A DNA stretch of 64,000 bases, taken from Paraspadella gotoi (Eukaryota; Animalia; Chaetognatha). Below are positions 2,023 to 62,302 of the stretch, piece after piece. A program made the translations under genes and the position numbers. The notes under the pieces were generated by a model, which was not told the DNA's origin, made no database searches, and saw only the letters and a program-made list of their open reading frames with translations. The stretch's first letter is position 1. Each line of letters starts with the position of its first letter. The stretch spans positions 21,498,494 through 21,562,493 of the forward strand of contig CM119263.1 in NCBI GenBank assembly GCA_051294375.1. Reading direction: 5' to 3'.

Positions 2023-2126
2023 AGGAGGAAACGCAGATAGTGTTTCTGAGTTCAGAAGATTACGATAAGATTTAGATTTTGTTTTTATTTTCTAAAATAC
2101 AGAATATAGAAGAAAGAGGAATATTT

Positions 2127-2358
2127 TGTGGTATATTCACACCACCTCACGTCCAAAACCATTGGCTGAGAGGGGGAACACACCATCCCAGGCGTTGTGT
2201 TCCATCCACATTCCTAACGACTTACCTTTGCGTTGGCAAAGCGTCCTAGGGTAACCGCGCCAGTGACTGGAGGCGTCACTGGGGGTCAAAAGCCCCCAAA
2301 GCCAACAGTGAGATGCCCCATCCCAATGGGCATCACAGGCAACCCGGCTGTTGCCATA
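2127..2358 (+). mobile_element. Solo LTR, family A (twister-carrying miniature LTR retroelement), decayed copy
   Basis: Reverse-complement match over its whole length to the LTRs at 39505-39762, 40001-40254, 49916-50170 and 50405-50659. Termini TGTGG...GCCATA. Possible ATAT target duplication with an eroded 5' end. Confidence 0.85.
2232..2306 (+). ncRNA. Degenerate type-P5 twister ribozyme (family A); GA+T1' segment deleted
   Basis: gttggc-aaa-gcg-[agaccg missing]-tcctaggg-TAA-ccgc-GC-cagtgac/gtcactg-gggg-T-CAA-AAGC-cccc-aaa-gccaac. It lacks the catalytic GA and has CGG>CAA in loop 4, so it is predicted inactive. Confidence 0.7.
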
Positions 2359-3241: not shown

Positions 3242-3497
3242 TGTGGCGGATCCTAAATTCGCCTCCCGTAGCTTGTTAAAACTCATCTCGTCACATTGGC
3301 TTGAACAGCGAAGTACCCGTTCACCAACCGTGAGTTCCGGGTTCAATCCCCTCACGATCACGCTGGTTAAAGTGTGCTGGTGACGGCATAAACACGACAG
3401 TGACATGGGGTGGTCACTGCAGGTCCAAAGCCCTGAGCGCCAGCTGACGGGAGATGCCTCACACCTCAGGCTTCACACATGTCCCCCCGTTGCCATA
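3242..3497 (+). mobile_element. Solo LTR, family B (tRNA-like B-box + twister)
   Basis: Reverse-complement match to 39131-39408 and 49547-49817. Termini TGTGGCG...TTGCCATA. Flanks AAGG/AAGT (3 of 4 match as a TSD). GGGTTCAATCCC at 3339-3350. Confidence 0.85.
3362..3444 (+). ncRNA. Type-P5 twister ribozyme (family B) with two core substitutions
   Basis: gctgg(P5)-ttaaa-gtgt(P2')-GC[consensus GA]-TGG(T1')-tgacggca(P1)-TAA-acac(P2)-GA[consensus GC]-cagtgac/gtcactg(P3)-cagg-T-CCA-AAGC-cctg(P4)-agcg-ccagc(P5'). Confidence 0.8.
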
Positions 3498-20945: not shown

Positions 20946-21062
20946 GAAGAAAGAAAAGAAAAAATAAAGAAAGAGAGAAAGAAAAAAAGAAAGAAAGAAA
21001 GAATAAATGAAAGAAAGAAAGATAGAAAGACAGACATAAACATAAATAGTTATATATGTCAT

Positions 21063-21125
21063 TATCTTGTAAGAGTGATGGAGGCCTAAAACCACCAGAG
21101 CCCGTCCAAAGTCAGGGGCAAGATA
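21063..21125 (+). ncRNA. Type-P5 twister ribozyme family C, slightly degenerate
   Basis: tatcttg-taa-gagt-GA-TGG-aggcct-AAA-acc-AC-cagag-cccg-T-CCA-AAGT-cagg-gg-caagata; followed by the family 3' sequence and (TAGA)n. Confidence 0.65.
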
Positions 21126-21154
21126 GCTTATTTATTAAATGAATGAATAATTTT

Positions 21155-27310: not shown

Positions 27311-27539
27311 ATTCCTTGAAATATTATACCACTTCATTGATATGGAAGCCAGATACTCTGGGAGTGATTAAACTAGACTGTGAGAGAGTCTTGATAGAAA
27401 GCTTGCAGGGACCTGCTATGTCATTATCTTGTAAGAGTGATGGAGGTCTTAAACCACCAAAGCCTGTCCAAAGTCAGGGGCAAGATAGCTTATTTATTAA
27501 ATGAATGGATAATTTTGATATTGGTTGTACCAATTTCAT
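27311..27539 (+). mobile_element. Dispersed repeat family C (twister-containing), longest copy; class unknown
   Basis: Core shared with 19350-19455 and 21055-21155; both flanks shared with 62221-62302. Confidence 0.65.
27425..27487 (+). ncRNA. Compact type-P5 twister ribozyme, family C (no P3); predicted cleavage T27450/A27451
   Basis: tatcttg(P5)-taa-gagt(P2')-GA-TGG(T1')-aggtct(P1)-TAA-acc(P2)-AC(T2)-caaag-cctg-T-CCA-AA-GT-cagg(P4)-gg-caagata(P5'). T2 covaries from GC/GC to AC/GT. Confidence 0.8.
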
Positions 27540-48975: not shown

Positions 48976-49546
48976 GAAATAAAAGGTTATTGTTAAAGAT
49001 ATTGTAACGACACTGAAAAAGGTTTAAAAAGGACGCAGAAAATTTAGGTATTGTGCAAATTTTTCACAACTATCACTGCTAAGACCCGATCTGCAGCCAC
49101 CAAGGTAATCTACTTTGAAAACAACAACAAGAACAACAAGAACAACAACAAGGAAAAGCCAAAAATGGACGAAACCGACTTGCGCTCTTTCCGTTCTTTC
49201 TCAGCCAGCGGTCCCTGAAGAGATAAGAATTGTAACAAGGAGAACGATCTCTCTCTCTCTCTTTCTTTTCCTTCTCAGCTGTAAAGGCTTTGACCATCGA
49301 GACAGGAGAACCAGCAGCTGCCGTCTCAGAAGCAGCAGAGAAAAGTTGCCGGTCGATTTTTCAAACGAACCTGAATTCCCCCTGAACCTAAAAATCCCAA
49401 CCCCCAAGCTGGTGGTTAGAAGATTTTAGAGAGAGAGAGAGAGAGAGAGTACAAGGCCAAATAGTGGAATGGGGAGAAAGCAACGTGAAATCAAGCGATC
49501 GATTTGAAACCAAAGAGAGATTTTATTCGTCCCTCACCCAAGCTAT

Positions 49547-49817
49547 TATGGCAACGGAGGGACATGTGTGATGCCTGGGGTGTGAGGCATCTCCCGACAG
49601 CTGGCGCTCAGGGCTTTGGACTTGCAGTGGCCACCCCATGTCACTGGCGTGTTTATGCCGACACCATCACACTTCACCATCACACTTTAACCAGCGTGAC
49701 CGTGAGGGGATTGAACCCGGAACTCACGGTTGGTGAACGAGTACTTAGCTGTCCAAGCCAATAGGACGAGCTGAGTTTCACCAAGCTATACGGGAGGCGA
49801 ATTTAGGATTCGCCACA
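49547..49817 (-). mobile_element. Solo LTR, family B (duplicate of 39131-39408), CTAT TSD
   Basis: ctat|tatggcaac...ttcgccaca|ctat. Confidence 0.9.
49600..49695 (-). ncRNA. Type-P5 twister ribozyme, family B, core intact
   Basis: Sense: gctgg-tta-[aagtgtgatggtg dup]-aa-gtgt-GA-TGG-tgtcggca-TAA-acac-GC-cagtg..cactg-caag-T-CCA-AAGC-cctg-agcg-ccagc. Confidence 0.85.
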
Positions 49818-49967
49818 CTATATTCTTTTCACAACTGACTTTGGTGATTTTCTTTCATTTTCTCCTTTATCCGATTATTTTTTTCTCTTCTCCTTTATTT
49901 CGATTTTTTTCATTGTATGGCAACAGCCGGGTTGCCTGTGATGCTCTTTGGGATGGGGCATCTCACT

Positions 49968-50048
49968 GTTGGCTTTGGGGGCTTCCGACCCTCAGTGACG
50001 CCTTCAGTCACTGGCGCGGTTACCCTAGGACGGTCTCGCTTTGCCAAC
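49968..50048 (-). ncRNA. Type-P5 twister ribozyme, family A, cleanest copy; predicted cleavage between 50022 and 50021
   Basis: Sense: gttggc(P5)-aaa-gcga(P2')-GA-CCG(T1')-tcctaggg(P1)-TAA-ccgc(P2)-GC-cagtgac/gtcactg(P3)-aggg-T-CGG-AAGC-cccc(P4)-aaa-gccaac(P5'). Confidence 0.85.
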
Positions 50049-50456
50049 GCAGAGGAAAGTCATTAGGACTGTGGATGGAACACAACGCCTGGGATGTTAT
50101 GTTCCCCCTCTGAGCCCATGGTATTGGCTGAACGATCGTGGACGTGAGGTGGTGTGAATATACCACCACAGGATCCCTGGGCCAAGACGTCACTCAGGTT
50201 CCTCAAGCCTAAGAAGTGTCTGACAAGACTGTTACCACAGTGTGAGAGAGAGAGCTAATGTGAGTTGTGGGGGCATAGGAGTTTGTTGTAGCAGACCCCA
50301 GGGACATAGGCGTTTGTTGTAACGTACCCAAAGTCGGCAGGGCATAGGCGTTTGTCGTAACGTACCCTGAGAAGGTTGCGAGTTTGATAGTAGGGCTCAC
50401 TACTTATGGCAAAAGGCGGGTTACTTGTGATGCCCATTGGGATGGGGCATCTCACT

Positions 50457-50537
50457 GTTAGCTTTGTGGGCTTCCGACCCTCAGTGACGCATCCAGTCAC
50501 TGGCGCGGTTACCCTGGGACGGTCTCGCTTTGCCAAC
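50457..50537 (-). ncRNA. Type-P5 twister ribozyme in the 5' LTR (family A); predicted cleavage between 50511 and 50510
   Basis: Sense: GA-CCG-tcccaggg-TAA-ccgc-GC-cagtgac..gtcactg-aggg-T-CGG-AAGC-ccac. Confidence 0.78.
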
Positions 50538-52222
50538 GCAGAGGGAAGTCGTTAGGACTGTGGATGGAACACAACATCTGGGATAGTGTGTTCCCCCTCT
50601 GAGCCAATAGTATTGGCTGAACGATCGTGGACGTGAGGTGGTGTGAATAGACCACCACAGTTGTCCGCTTTCTAACTATTGACCAGTAGATCGTATCGAG
50701 GTAATAGTATCCGTTACTGCATGGACATGACCAATTCAAAATACACAAGCATAATCGTGAGTTTGCATTCACGATCTCGTTGTACTGAAGAGCATGAAGT
50801 CCTAGTACAACTCAATCAATTAAAAATATAGAATTTGTAATATATAATTTTAATGAATATTAAAAAATTTTAAACTTAAAATAGTGAAATAAGTAATTTT
50901 GCAATTTTCATAGAAATTTTCTTGGAATTTTTGCAATATTTAGTTCCAGAGTTCGATTACAAACAAAGTACTAAAAATAATTTCAAAGGCCAAATCCGCG
51001 GGATGCGCCGTCAGTCTAAGATTCACGTGACCGCGTTTCTCAAATGACCGCTCTACGAAAAAATCACGTGACTTTTGGGACTCTTGAGTCACGTGATTGC
51101 GCTTCTTCGTTCACGTGACCATCCGAAGGTCGAATCCCGTGATTCTAAAAACGTCGATGGACGAAGAGATAAACGAGCGGCGGCGGCGGCGGCGGCGGCG
51201 GCGGCGTCGAAGGCGGTGGTTGAGGGGCGCCGGCGGTGGTGGCGGTGGTGGAGGCAAGAGCTGCGAGGAACGACGGAAGAGCAGATGGCATCGAGTTTCT
51301 CCAACATGAAATTCTGATTTTTTTAAGAGGATAGACAGTATCAGAGAAAGAGAGAGAAAGACAGAGAGAGAGAATAGGGAAAAAAATGATTTTAAAAATA
51401 TTTAAAACTCCTTCCACAGAACCTGATAGATAAAACTTGATCGAACTTTATTGATAAATTCAAAAAGGACACACTAAAAAATTAACCTCAAAGATCCCAC
51501 AACAACATCCAGCGCGTTATAAAGTACGACCCACAAGTACGAACGATGACCTCAAATCATAACAACGACCATTACGACAACAGCAACAACAATAACGAAA
51601 AAGGACGAACGAGGATCCCGACGAATCGTGAAAAGCGACGATGACCGCGAATTTCAGCCTCATTAGCATACGCGTGTCACGTGACCTCGGGTCATCGGAT
51701 CCGTGAAAAGTGAAAGGAGGAGGAGGAGGCGGAGGAGGAGGAGGAGGAGCAGACCCCGGATGCGTCGGTCGCTCCGTTTTTATCGACGACTTCCTGTGAC
51801 GCCAGATGACGGAGAAAAACTTGCGTCGAGGTCGTCGTCAAGGAGACGGAGAATCGTAAACAAAGAGAGGAGAGACGAAGTCGTTGATTCGATAGGAAAG
51901 AAGTTTTGTTGTTTTTTCTTTTTTGTTCTTTTTTTAAAATTTCTTAAACGGTGATGAGAGGCTCATTAGAGATAATATGTCATTGACTGTATGATGGTAT
52001 ATATTGTCATCAATCAGGAGATATAATTTTTATTCATTATTTCAAATGTTTTCTCATATTTTATTATCCTTTAAATTTTTTTTCGAACCTAAAACGTTTT
52101 GTTCTTTTTTACTTATTTGGCTTATTATTAATACTCTTTCAATCTACATTCAAGAGCGCGTTTGAAATTCTGTATTTTTCACAACCGGTCATAAATTAAT
52201 CCTAATCCATATAACTTTCACG

Positions 52223-52664: not shown

Positions 52665-52959
52665 TGTAGTCGGGCATTGCCTAGGTTCACCCCGCCTAGA
52701 ATCATGACACTCTCAGTTGTGACCCGGTGGCTCATTGAGTAAACTTAATAAAGCCATCAGCTCATGACCACTAGGTACCGGGTTCAATCCCAACCCGGTA
52801 CCTACCCTGCGGGAAGCGTGAGGACGGCCGTAAGCCGCCTTGGGGGCATGGCAAACCCTCAAGCCTGGTTCCAAGCCCAGGGTCCCGTTCCATGGCTGCT
52901 AGAGGGGGTTATAGAAGTTACGGACAGTCATCTTCAGCCCACTTAGCGCCTTATCCACA
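52665..52959 (+). mobile_element. Solo LTR-like element, family D (tRNA-like A/B boxes + twister), AAAG TSD
   Basis: aaag|TGTAG...CCACA|aaag. A-box-like TGGCTCATTGAG at 52728. B-box GGTTCAATCCC within the hairpin taggtaccgggtt/aacccggtaccta (52772-52804). Confidence 0.8.
52810..52887 (+). ncRNA. Type-P5 twister ribozyme, family D; predicted cleavage T52831/A52832
   Basis: cggga(P5)-a-gcgt(P2')-GA-GGA(T1')-cggccg(P1)-TAA-gcc(P2)-GC-cttggggg/ccctcaag(P3)-cctgg-T-TCC-AAGC-ccagg(P4)-g-tcccg(P5'). Confidence 0.82.
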
Positions 52960-61159: not shown

Positions 61160-62220
61160 TCCACATTAGCTGATTTATATGTGATAATGATATATCATTA
61201 TAAGTTATTCTTCATTTTTAAAAAAAATAATAAGAAGAGAGAGAGAGAGAGAGAGAAAGAAAAGAAAAACCGAATTTCTTTCCAATTATATCTCAGATAT
61301 AAATTGGGATTTTGTATTTGAAAAAAAAAGCGCGGAATAAATTGGCGATAATAAATGTTTGAGAAGGAAAAAAATAATCAGAATTTTTCAAAAAAACGAA
61401 CGATCGTACAGAGTGAGAGAGACAGAAAGAGAGAGAAAGAGAGACAGAAAGAGAAAAAAGAGAGACAAAGAGACAGAAAGAAAGAAAACTGGAAGCCAGC
61501 TGAACAGTCACTGCAGAACCTGAACTCGTTTTTTAAGGGTTCAGAAAAAGCAGCAACTGACAAATATAGGAAAGAAAATCTATATATAATTTAAAAAATA
61601 AAAGAAAGGCAAAATATGTAACATTGTTTACAATTGGAAATTTTTCCAATTTTTTTCCAATCGCCAGCTTTGTAAAAGATTTAATTTATATTTGTATTAA
61701 AATTAAGATATAGCTTCTCATTAAAAAAATCCTTTGAGTTCCCATTTTTATTAAAAATTTAAAACAAATTTTTTGAATTTCATCTTCAATATAATATACT
61801 GCAATATGTAAATTAGATTAAAAGCATTTCTATATACTAATTTGGATATTATAAGGAGTACTTTAATCTCATTTGCATATTGCAGTAAATCATAATGAAG
61901 TGGAAATTCAAACAAAAAATACTTAAATCCAAATGTAATATGAAAATATCACAGCTATTTCAAGATGAAAAGCCATATCTAAATTTTAACCTTACTTATG
62001 ATCGCCACACTTTTGTAAAACTTTATCATAATTCATAATAATTTTTATTTAAAAAAAAACGGTAAGTCACAGCCAAACCTATAAAAGCGTAGTAGTTTTT
62101 TATATATGAAAACAGCGTGACGGAGACGACGACGACGACGACGACTACGTCACAAAGAAGCAACCCTAAAACATTATAGCAAGCCTTGACCCGGCTTCGC
62201 CGGTCAAGGCTCGATAAAAA
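61160..62220 (+). mobile_element. Second copy of the HINE-like element (see 5690-7012)
   Basis: Collinear match; terminal hairpin agccttgacccggcttcgccggtcaaggct at 62182-62211, followed by cgataaaaa. Confidence 0.7.
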
Positions 62221-62302
62221 TTCTTTGAAACAATATACCATTTCATTATAGCTTATTTATTAAATGAATGGATAATTTTTATATTGGTTGTACCAATTTC
62301 AT
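62221..62302 (+). mobile_element. Family C copy lacking the ribozyme segment
   Basis: ttctttgaaacaatataccatttcatt|atagcttatttattaaatgaatggataatt..tattggttgtaccaatttcat joins the two flanks of 27311-27539. Confidence 0.7.

What the first reader, a model, noticed from the sequence alone, without database searches (positions are those of the whole stretch)
50023..50030. Helix P1 is replaced by a short palindrome in every family, suggesting dimeric ('double-twister') cleavage
Seen: the segment between T1' and UAA is tcctaggg/tcccaggg (A), tgtcggca (B), aggcct/aggtct (C) and cggccg (D). These are different sequences, all only 6-8 nt, and essentially self-complementary (allowing G-U). As a hairpin this gives just 1-2 bp plus a tetraloop. 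Two molecules, or the two LTRs of one transcript, could form a full 6-8 bp intermolecular P1. Known: minimal hammerheads with palindromic stem III cleave as double-hammerhead dimers, and twister can tolerate a very short P1. Inference: cleavage may be switched on only when both LTRs are transcribed, sparing transcripts through solo LTRs. I know of no reported dimeric twister of this type.
Basis: inference. Interest (0 to 1): 0.85.

Follow-up and report, generated by a model that had tools for sequence, protein, structure and literature searches.

The report
Stub-armed twister ribozymes in animal LTRs
Small, very common non-coding jumping elements here carry a twister-type RNA fold, predicted to cut itself, whose first helix is shrunk to a 6-8-base stub; it likely still cuts alone, although the stub is often self-complementary and could let two copies pair and cut together, which nobody has tested.

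Summary
50023-50030 (minus strand, UCCUAGGG) is the P1 position of a type-P5 twister fold in the 3' LTR of a 744-bp non-coding LTR element. The element has CsRn1-type gypsy marks: TGT..ATA ends, a 4-bp TSD and a tRNA-Trp-like PBS. The stubs are real and short: 6-8 nt, against 15-26 nt in 22 of 22 phage P5 twisters. Six of 8 readable copies are self-complementary with G-U allowed; two break in the centre, one of them in the other LTR of the only two-LTR element. A strand-swapped dimer is nested and plausible, but ties with two monomers in the real transcript (-224.4 vs -223.8 kcal/mol). Published work shows P1 is dispensable in twisters. Both family-A loops (CUAG, CCAG) fit the stable cYNMGg tetraloop. 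Best reading (0.45): a minimal cap that cleaves as a monomer. A dimer-gated 'double twister' stays a real rival (0.35), strongest for families C and D (1 bp plus GGCC) and weakest at the flagged site. Family C shows no LTR ends. No cleavage or RNA evidence. I found no twister-bearing animal LTR retrozyme in the paper searches.

The parts
50023..50030 (-). P1 stub of the family-A 3' LTR twister, UCCUAGGG: 2 bp plus c(CUAG)g loop as a hairpin, or an 8-bp self-duplex
49968..50048 (-). Type-P5 twister fold in the 3' LTR (P5, P2', GA, T1', stub, UAA, P2, T2, P3, P4, L4, P5); predicted cut between 50022 and 50021
49916..50170 (-). Family-A 3' LTR, TGT..ATA ends; contigs break sharply at both ends
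50405..50659 (-). Family-A 5' LTR, 92% identical to the 3' LTR
50457..50537 (-). Twister fold in the 5' LTR; stub 50519-50512 UCCCAGGG is not self-complementary in the centre; P4 has a mismatch in this copy
50390..50402 (-). PBS-like site 2 nt after the 5' LTR, close to the published CsRn1-clade tRNA-Trp PBS; imperfect in this copy
50171..50404 (-). 234-bp internal region with three short related repeats, too short to carry gag or pol
49912..49915 (.). 4-bp target site copy (CAAT), pairing with CAAC at 50660-50663 (3 of 4 match)
49547..49817 (-). Family-B solo LTR, exact 4-bp TSD ATAG; twister 49695-49600, stub 49663-49656 UGUCGGCA
3242..3497 (+). Decayed family-B solo LTR; stub 3382-3389 UGACGGCA, not palindromic; core GA and T2 altered
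2126..2358 (+). Family-A solo LTR; stub 2244-2251 UCCUAGGG kept, but the GA and T1' strand are deleted
52665..52959 (+). Family-D solo LTR (TGT..ACA, exact TSD AAAG); twister 52809-52888, stub 52825-52830 CGGCCG, P2 of 3 nt with a mismatch
27425..27487 (+). Family-C twister fold, stub 27444-27449 AGGUCU; no LTR ends seen
21058..21130 (+). Family-C copy between microsatellites, stub 21082-21087 AGGCCU followed by AAA instead of UAA; the locus is repeated at about 19.35-19.45 kb

Best explanation
The flagged 8 bases are the shrunken P1 arm of a type-P5 twister fold in the LTR of a non-coding, CsRn1-like gypsy element, and they likely fold as a minimal 2-bp cap on a ribozyme predicted to cut as a single copy. 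Inferred mechanism: an RNA running through both LTRs would be cut once in each LTR, releasing a 489-nt unit that a host ligase could close into a circle and a CsRn1-type helper could reverse-transcribe from the tRNA-Trp-like site, as in plant LTR retrozymes. P1 could shrink because twister catalysis does not need it. The stub's self-complementarity would then be largely a by-product: the two arms of a hairpin that has lost its tip are complementary, and a Y-N-N-G loop pairs its first and last base anyway. Dimers may form at high RNA concentration but would not be a switch. Shown here: sequence, fold covariation, LTR anatomy. Inferred: transcription, cleavage, circularisation, mobilisation.
For: Twisters lacking P1 cleave at almost wild-type rate (PMC5408937, passages). 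In a test of 2625 type-P1 twisters, P1 length, stability and imperfections did not affect cleavage (PMC11662667). S. mansoni variants with variable P1 cleave, with any base 5' of the cut (PMC8501958). A permuted twister with P1 shortened and closed by a tetraloop worked in E. coli (PMC5052635; stem length not seen). All stubs are even-length and close a 4-nt loop with 1-2 bp. CCUAGG and CCCAGG are both among the 16 special tetraloops of the Turner table and fit YNMG (PMC2346598); the U/C change falls on the free N position and breaks the palindrome. Two of 8 copies are not self-complementary. Swapped and monomer states tie in the real transcript. Even in hammerheads, 2 bp plus a tetraloop is the geometry described for invertebrate motifs that cleave as monomers (PMC7229834, PMC7761336).
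Against: Self-complementarity is above chance (p about 0.001-0.009). A and B differ by a double change at the central pair (U-A to C-G), which cannot form inside a hairpin. No stub uses GNRA or UUCG, and the B, C and D loops are not YNMG. Without T1 stacking the stub hairpins are 0.7-3.6 kcal/mol less stable than the open loop. The P1-dispensable data come from open-ended constructs, not a short closed tether; aptamers placed at P1 of a permuted twister changed output up to about 35-fold, and Liu 2021 calls P1-less cleavage inefficient. The predicted circle is not unusually structured (z -1.2), so a monomer-active twister might reopen it.
Confidence: 0.45

Rival explanations
1. Double twister: efficient cutting needs two copies that swap strands so that each core is built from both and the two stubs form one 6-8 bp P1. 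Cutting would be on in a two-copy precursor and off in solo LTRs and in the one-ribozyme circle.
For: The swapped fold is fully nested. Isolated swapped dimers gain 13.4 (A 3'), 13.7 (B), 16.3 (D), 6.8 (A 5') and 4.8 (C) kcal/mol over two monomers. Stubs are far shorter than in 22 of 22 phage P5 twisters. C and D have the 1 bp plus palindromic tetraloop geometry of axolotl hammerheads, which cut 6% as monomers and much better as dimers (PMC7229834). There is a central compensatory change between A and B.
Against: P1 is not needed for twister chemistry. The one two-LTR element has mismatched stubs and no net gain. The first ribozyme is complete 489 nt before its partner is made, and swapping needs P5, P2 and T1 to open (inference). 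No two-copy C or D element is seen. Family-A variation fits a monomeric tetraloop.
Confidence: 0.35
2. The ribozyme cuts alone, but the palindrome is kept for another job, most likely as a kissing or dimerisation signal for co-packaging two RNAs into the helper's particle, as with retroviral dimer-initiation loops (recalled).
For: It explains above-chance palindromy without conflict with P1 being dispensable. The GC-rich 6-mers (CGGCCG, AGGCCU) resemble such loops (recalled). The element has gypsy hallmarks and must use a helper's particle.
Against: Family C shows no LTR features. A loop of 4 nt next to a ribozyme core is poorly exposed for kissing (inference). No direct data.
Confidence: 0.12
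3. These folds do not cut at a useful rate at all; they are decayed or repurposed LTR structures.
For: No Rfam match reaches the gathering score. Family A has a C.A mismatch at the first P2 pair; C and D have a 3-nt P2 with a mismatch; only 3 of 8 copies pass the strict descriptor. The unconstrained fold of the transcript does not favour P2 or P4, though pseudoknots are not modelled.
Against: Catalytic GA, UAA and L4 residues are kept with covarying T1 and T2 across families that are otherwise unalignable. P2 and P4 imperfections are tolerated in natural twisters. Several flaws are private to these copies: positions 49622, 50460 and 50467 differ in most contigs.
Confidence: 0.08

Closest known systems
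Type-P5 twister ribozyme (Rfam RF02684; permutations described in PMC5408937)
   Same: Order of elements, GA and UAA of L1, L4 of the form U-NNN-AAGC, both pseudoknots, ends in P5.
   Different: P1 is 6-8 nt in all instead of a long hairpin; T1 sequences are non-canonical; scores are below the Rfam threshold; it sits in eukaryotic repeats.
Plant LTR retrozymes (PMC7761336 and 10.64898/2026.07.22.740005, passages; PMC4918200, search listing only)
   Same: Non-coding, two LTRs each with a self-cleaving motif, 4-bp TSD, PBS, unit of some hundred nt.
   Different: Twister rather than type III hammerhead; tRNA-Trp-like rather than tRNA-Met PBS; CsRn1-type ends, a clade described from invertebrates; circular RNA not shown.
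CsRn1-clade Ty3/gypsy retrotransposons (PMC2582038, section 6 and passages)
   Same: TGT..ATA ends, 4-bp TSD, LTR of 255-295 bp, PBS close to the published tRNA-Trp site.
   Different: No gag or pol; a ribozyme in the LTR, which my searches did not find reported for this clade.
Dimer-dependent hammerheads of axolotl/newt retrozymes and Penelope-like elements (PMC7229834 section 15; PMC6765202 passages; Lunse 2017 not held, seen only as cited)
   Same: The helix next to the cut site is cut to 1-2 bp plus a 4-nt loop, palindromic in C and D; repeated copies in one transcript.
   Different: Hammerhead stem III is needed for activity, twister P1 is reported not to be; dimer cleavage is shown there and untested here.
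T-variant twisters of Perere-3 RTE elements in Schistosoma mansoni (PMC8501958, section 19 and passages)
   Same: Retrotransposon-borne twisters with weak or variable P1 that still cut.
   Different: Type-P1, at the 5' end of non-LTR elements, P1 partly made by the TSD; no palindromic stub (0 hits for 'dimer' or 'palindrom' in that text).

Membership tests
Type-P5 twister ribozyme | Conserved L1 (GA, UAA) and L4 residues | tested here: met
   A (two LTRs), B 49k, C 27k and D
Type-P5 twister ribozyme | Pseudoknots T1 and T2 with covariation | tested here: met
   T1 in three forms, T2 in two
Type-P5 twister ribozyme | P2 (4 bp), P4, and 5'/3' ends in P5 | tested here: inconclusive
   P5 and P4 pair; P2 is 4 of 4 in B, 3 of 4 in A, 2 of 3 in C and D
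Type-P5 twister ribozyme | P1 as a multi-pair hairpin | tested here: not met
   6-8 nt, 1-2 bp, against 15-26 nt in 22 of 22 phage examples
Type-P5 twister ribozyme | Rfam gathering score | tested here: not met
   best 24.5 bits (twister-P1, cut-off 67.2) and 24.0 bits (Twister-P5, cut-off 37.6)
Type-P5 twister ribozyme | Site-specific self-cleavage | not testable with these tools
   only contigs were available
LTR retrozyme (plant type) | Two LTRs with a ribozyme each, non-coding interior, 4-bp TSD | tested here: met
   family A; (TSD 3 of 4)
LTR retrozyme (plant type) | Type III hammerhead and tRNA-Met PBS | tested here: not met
   twister fold and Trp-like PBS; no hammerhead match
LTR retrozyme (plant type) | Abundant circular RNA of unit length | not testable with these tools
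   no RNA holder on record
CsRn1-clade gypsy (non-autonomous derivative) | TGT..ATA ends and 4-bp TSD | tested here: met
   A and B; TSD exact in B 49k, 3 of 4 in A full and B 3k; D has TGT..ACA with an exact TSD
CsRn1-clade gypsy (non-autonomous derivative) | tRNA-Trp PBS next to the 5' LTR | tested here: inconclusive
   near match in this copy and its duplicate; 50401 differs in nearly all contigs laid there
CsRn1-clade gypsy (non-autonomous derivative) | CHCC Gag, RT phylogeny, or a helper sharing the LTR | not testable with these tools
   no coding region; no genome held
Dimer-dependent ribozyme (double-hammerhead principle) | Self-complementary stub in the helix next to the cut | tested here: inconclusive
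   6 of 8 copies; p about 0.001-0.009, post hoc
Dimer-dependent ribozyme (double-hammerhead principle) | Dimer state favoured in the natural two-copy transcript | tested here: inconclusive
   -224.4 vs -223.8 kcal/mol, pseudoknots not modelled
Dimer-dependent ribozyme (double-hammerhead principle) | Monomer slow, dimer fast | not testable with these tools
   needs kinetics; published data say twister P1 is dispensable
Naiad/Penelope-like tail (family C) | Adjacent PLE coding sequence or pseudo-LTR | tested here: inconclusive
   microsatellite context fits PMC8557442; no Pfam or protein hit upstream

The most novel reading that the evidence does not exclude
A strand-swapped double twister gates these elements: one ribozyme alone is off, so solo LTRs and the finished RNA circle stay intact, while two copies in one transcript, or two genomes annealed by the helper's nucleocapsid protein, zip their stubs into one P1 and cut both ends together. 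Twisters would then have reinvented the double-hammerhead switch in gypsy LTRs and in a non-LTR family.
Probability: 0.3. Interest if true: 0.8.

Novelty: new variant of a known kind. Interest (0 to 1): 0.58.

Why it matters
LTR retrozymes are described from plants with hammerheads, and animal retrozymes lack LTRs. A high-copy CsRn1-like LTR family with a twister would be a new pairing of ribozyme and element, whichever way it cuts. If the dimer is required, it would be the first natural dimer-gated twister I could find, would show that a dispensable helix can act as a switch when closed by a short tether, and would explain how a twister-bearing circle avoids cutting itself. One week of in vitro kinetics decides it.

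Tried and rejected
No genome is held, so the genome-wide palindrome test could not be run. Laying four runs on a 53-bp stretch over the stub gave no variant rows (the stretch was probably too short), so the CUAG/CCAG ratio is unknown. In one search none of the 40 rows shown falls in a stub, and 127 rows are hidden. No RNA holder is listed; two runs are only guessed to be RNA, which is no evidence on expression. A metagenome scan for A/B-like folds gave 4 loci, all type-P1 twisters by eye, not relatives. Short-P1 scans: GTDB 4 of 75 loci passed the descriptor, of which Rfam calls one P5 with a 12-nt P1 (L208), one weak P5 with 9 unpaired nt (L154), one P1-type (L204) and one nothing; phage scans with the window's T1 forms 0 of 20 and 0 of 4; a CsRn1 PBS scan 0 of 51 with a twister. 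The 6-nt phage case (L057, L077, L132) is a tandem of type-P1 twisters and was dropped as a control, as were L045 (type-P1) and a mis-parse of L086. The 48 type-P3 scan loci gave no clear control. Rfam's type-P1 reading of family A was rejected because its T1' strand cannot pair with L4. No tRNA gene in the window. Motif searches in the Naiad/Chlamys supplement showed no P5 twister with a stub; lines are wrapped and T1 forms limited, so this is weak. The MAFFT alignment of the four families was out of register and not used. Papers not held: Kosutic 2015 and Lunse 2017; the CHiTA supplement could not be read and may hold P1-length data.

Full report
What is there. The window is repeat-rich eukaryotic DNA with gaps and duplicated, indel-rich stretches; no genome is held. 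On the minus strand, 50030-50023 reads UCCUAGGG and lies between GA-CCG and UAA in a type-P5 twister fold: P5, P2', GA, T1', stub, UAA, P2, GC, P3, P4, L4, P5. The same fold occurs in four sequence families. T1 covaries as CGG/CCG (A), CCA/UGG (B, C) and UCC/GGA (D), and T2 as GC/GC or AC/GU. A strict descriptor finds 3 copies in the window and 2 hits in 30 shuffles. Rfam sees twister only below threshold. The fold is therefore well supported by covariation; cleavage is inferred.

The element. The flagged copy is in the 3' LTR of a 744-bp element (49916-50659) with two 255-bp LTRs, 92% identical, and a 234-bp interior. A and B LTRs run TGT..ATA, D runs TGT..ACA, and 4-bp target-site copies are exact for B 49k and D, 3 of 4 for A full and B 3k, and unclear for the A solo. 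Thousands of contigs lie on 49500-50720 (10,621 in run X1) with loose ends at 49547/49817 and 49916/50170, so A and B are high-copy families with fixed ends. Two bases after the 5' LTR is a site close to the tRNA-Trp PBS published for CsRn1-clade gypsy elements, for which TGT..ATA ends and 4-bp TSDs are also reported (PMC2582038 section 6). I read A as a non-autonomous CsRn1-like element that works like an LTR retrozyme, likely in an invertebrate (inference from the clade). A and B are homologous from the twister to the LTR end (score 70, shuffle maximum 33); A and D are not alignable. Family C shows no LTR ends, one of its two loci sits between microsatellites, and no coding match was found; a Penelope-like tail is possible but unproven.

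The stub. Eight readable copies remain after dropping four duplicates. Six are self-complementary with G-U; the A 5' LTR (CCAG) and the second B copy (ACGG) break in the centre. As a control, 88 phage loci matched a P5 pattern; 25 distinct segments passed P2 and P4 filters, three were dropped as type-P1 or mis-parsed, and all 22 left are hairpins of 15-26 nt (Rfam confirmed the three of them I checked). Scans for short P1 in bacteria and phages found no 6-8-nt palindromic case; they cover three T1 forms only. So the stub is unusual. A random loop is self-complementary 14% of the time, and the joint chance is about 0.009 for three lineages or 0.001 for four. That figure is post hoc, and it weakens if the first and last loop bases in A and B (Y..G) are counted as a tetraloop feature.

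For a monomer. Twisters without P1 cut at almost wild-type rate (PMC5408937, passages; PMC6154101, passages). In PMC11662667 (abstract, sections 32 part 1 and 33, passages) P1 length, stability and flaws had no effect, but only type-P1 forms were tested. Every stub here is 1-2 bp plus a 4-nt loop, the smallest normal cap. Both A hexamers, CCUAGG and CCCAGG, are among ViennaRNA's 16 special tetraloops and fit YNMG, where position 2 is free (PMC2346598, passages; PMC5311481, passages). The A variation is thus what a monomeric loop allows and a palindrome does not. The 5' LTR is the more decayed one, so CCAG may be a later change; I could not measure its frequency.

For a dimer. A full intermolecular P1 cannot form while both stub ends stay in one core (geometric inference); P5, P2 and T1 must swap, as in double hammerheads. 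That swapped fold is nested. For isolated copies it gains 4.8-16.3 kcal/mol over two monomers. In the real two-LTR RNA it ties: -224.4 vs -223.8 kcal/mol, while the free fold (-249.3) forms neither; pseudoknots are not modelled. Two CUAG stubs would add about 5 kcal/mol. A and B differ at 6 of 8 stub positions yet stay pairable, including U-A to C-G at the centre: one compensatory event. C and D match the 1 bp plus palindromic tetraloop of axolotl hammerheads that need dimers (PMC7229834 section 15; PMC6765202, passages). The predicted 489-nt circle is not unusually stable (z -1.2, 40 shuffles), so dimer gating would be one way to keep it closed; this is a better rationale than sparing solo LTRs, but is inference. 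Unchecked notes from this scan report palindromic P1 in Naiad-borne P5 twisters of other genomes; they are leads, not support.

In print. Full-text searches for double, dimeric or dimer twister, twister with palindrome and dimer, twister with LTR or retrozyme and twister with gypsy or CsRn1 found no dimeric twister and no twister LTR retrozyme in the listings; I read passages of only some hits, and the library lacks most subscription papers. PMC7761336 mentions truncated active twisters in RTE elements as in preparation.

Verdict. Observation partly confirmed; interpretation partly supported. Monomeric minimal cap 0.45, double twister 0.35, packaging signal 0.12, inactive 0.08. The case for the dimer is weakest at the flagged family-A site and strongest for C and D. 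New variant of a known kind; interest 0.58.

Noticed in passing
window 3339-3350 (+), 49707-49718 (-), 52780-52791 (+): B and D LTRs share GGGTTCAATCCC inside a hairpin upstream of the twister (4 matches with up to 1 mismatch, 0.28 expected). It resembles a tRNA T-arm or Pol III B box (recalled); ARAGORN finds no tRNA.
   Followed up: partly
L057:39-138, L077:20-119, L132:42-141: Phage contigs with two type-P1 twisters in direct tandem, 48 nt apart, joined by a 6-nt linker that may serve both P1 helices.
   Followed up: partly
window about 31.5-42 kb vs 42-52.4 kb; 17.6-19.7 kb vs 19.7-21.4 kb: Tandem duplicates at 84-98% identity with many single-base indels; likely the same loci assembled twice from noisy reads.
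   Followed up: partly
window 49669-49681 (-): A 13-nt internal duplication in this B copy repeats P2', GA and T1' and could offer a second register.
   Followed up: no
window 49941-49962 and 49569-49591: A and B share a GAUGCC..GGCAUC hairpin just downstream of the twister on the minus strand, and both LTRs begin with a hairpin.
   Followed up: no
PMC8557442 supplement, Chlamys-1_cAtm 5' end: The published consensus starts with what looks like the P2-P3-P4-L4 part of a twister.
   Followed up: no
window 62216-62302: A family-C-related fragment in which the stretch holding the twister is missing.
   Followed up: no
L137-L140: Four metagenome contigs with type-P1 twisters in AT-rich context; L138 and L140 are alike, as are L137 and L139.
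   Followed up: no
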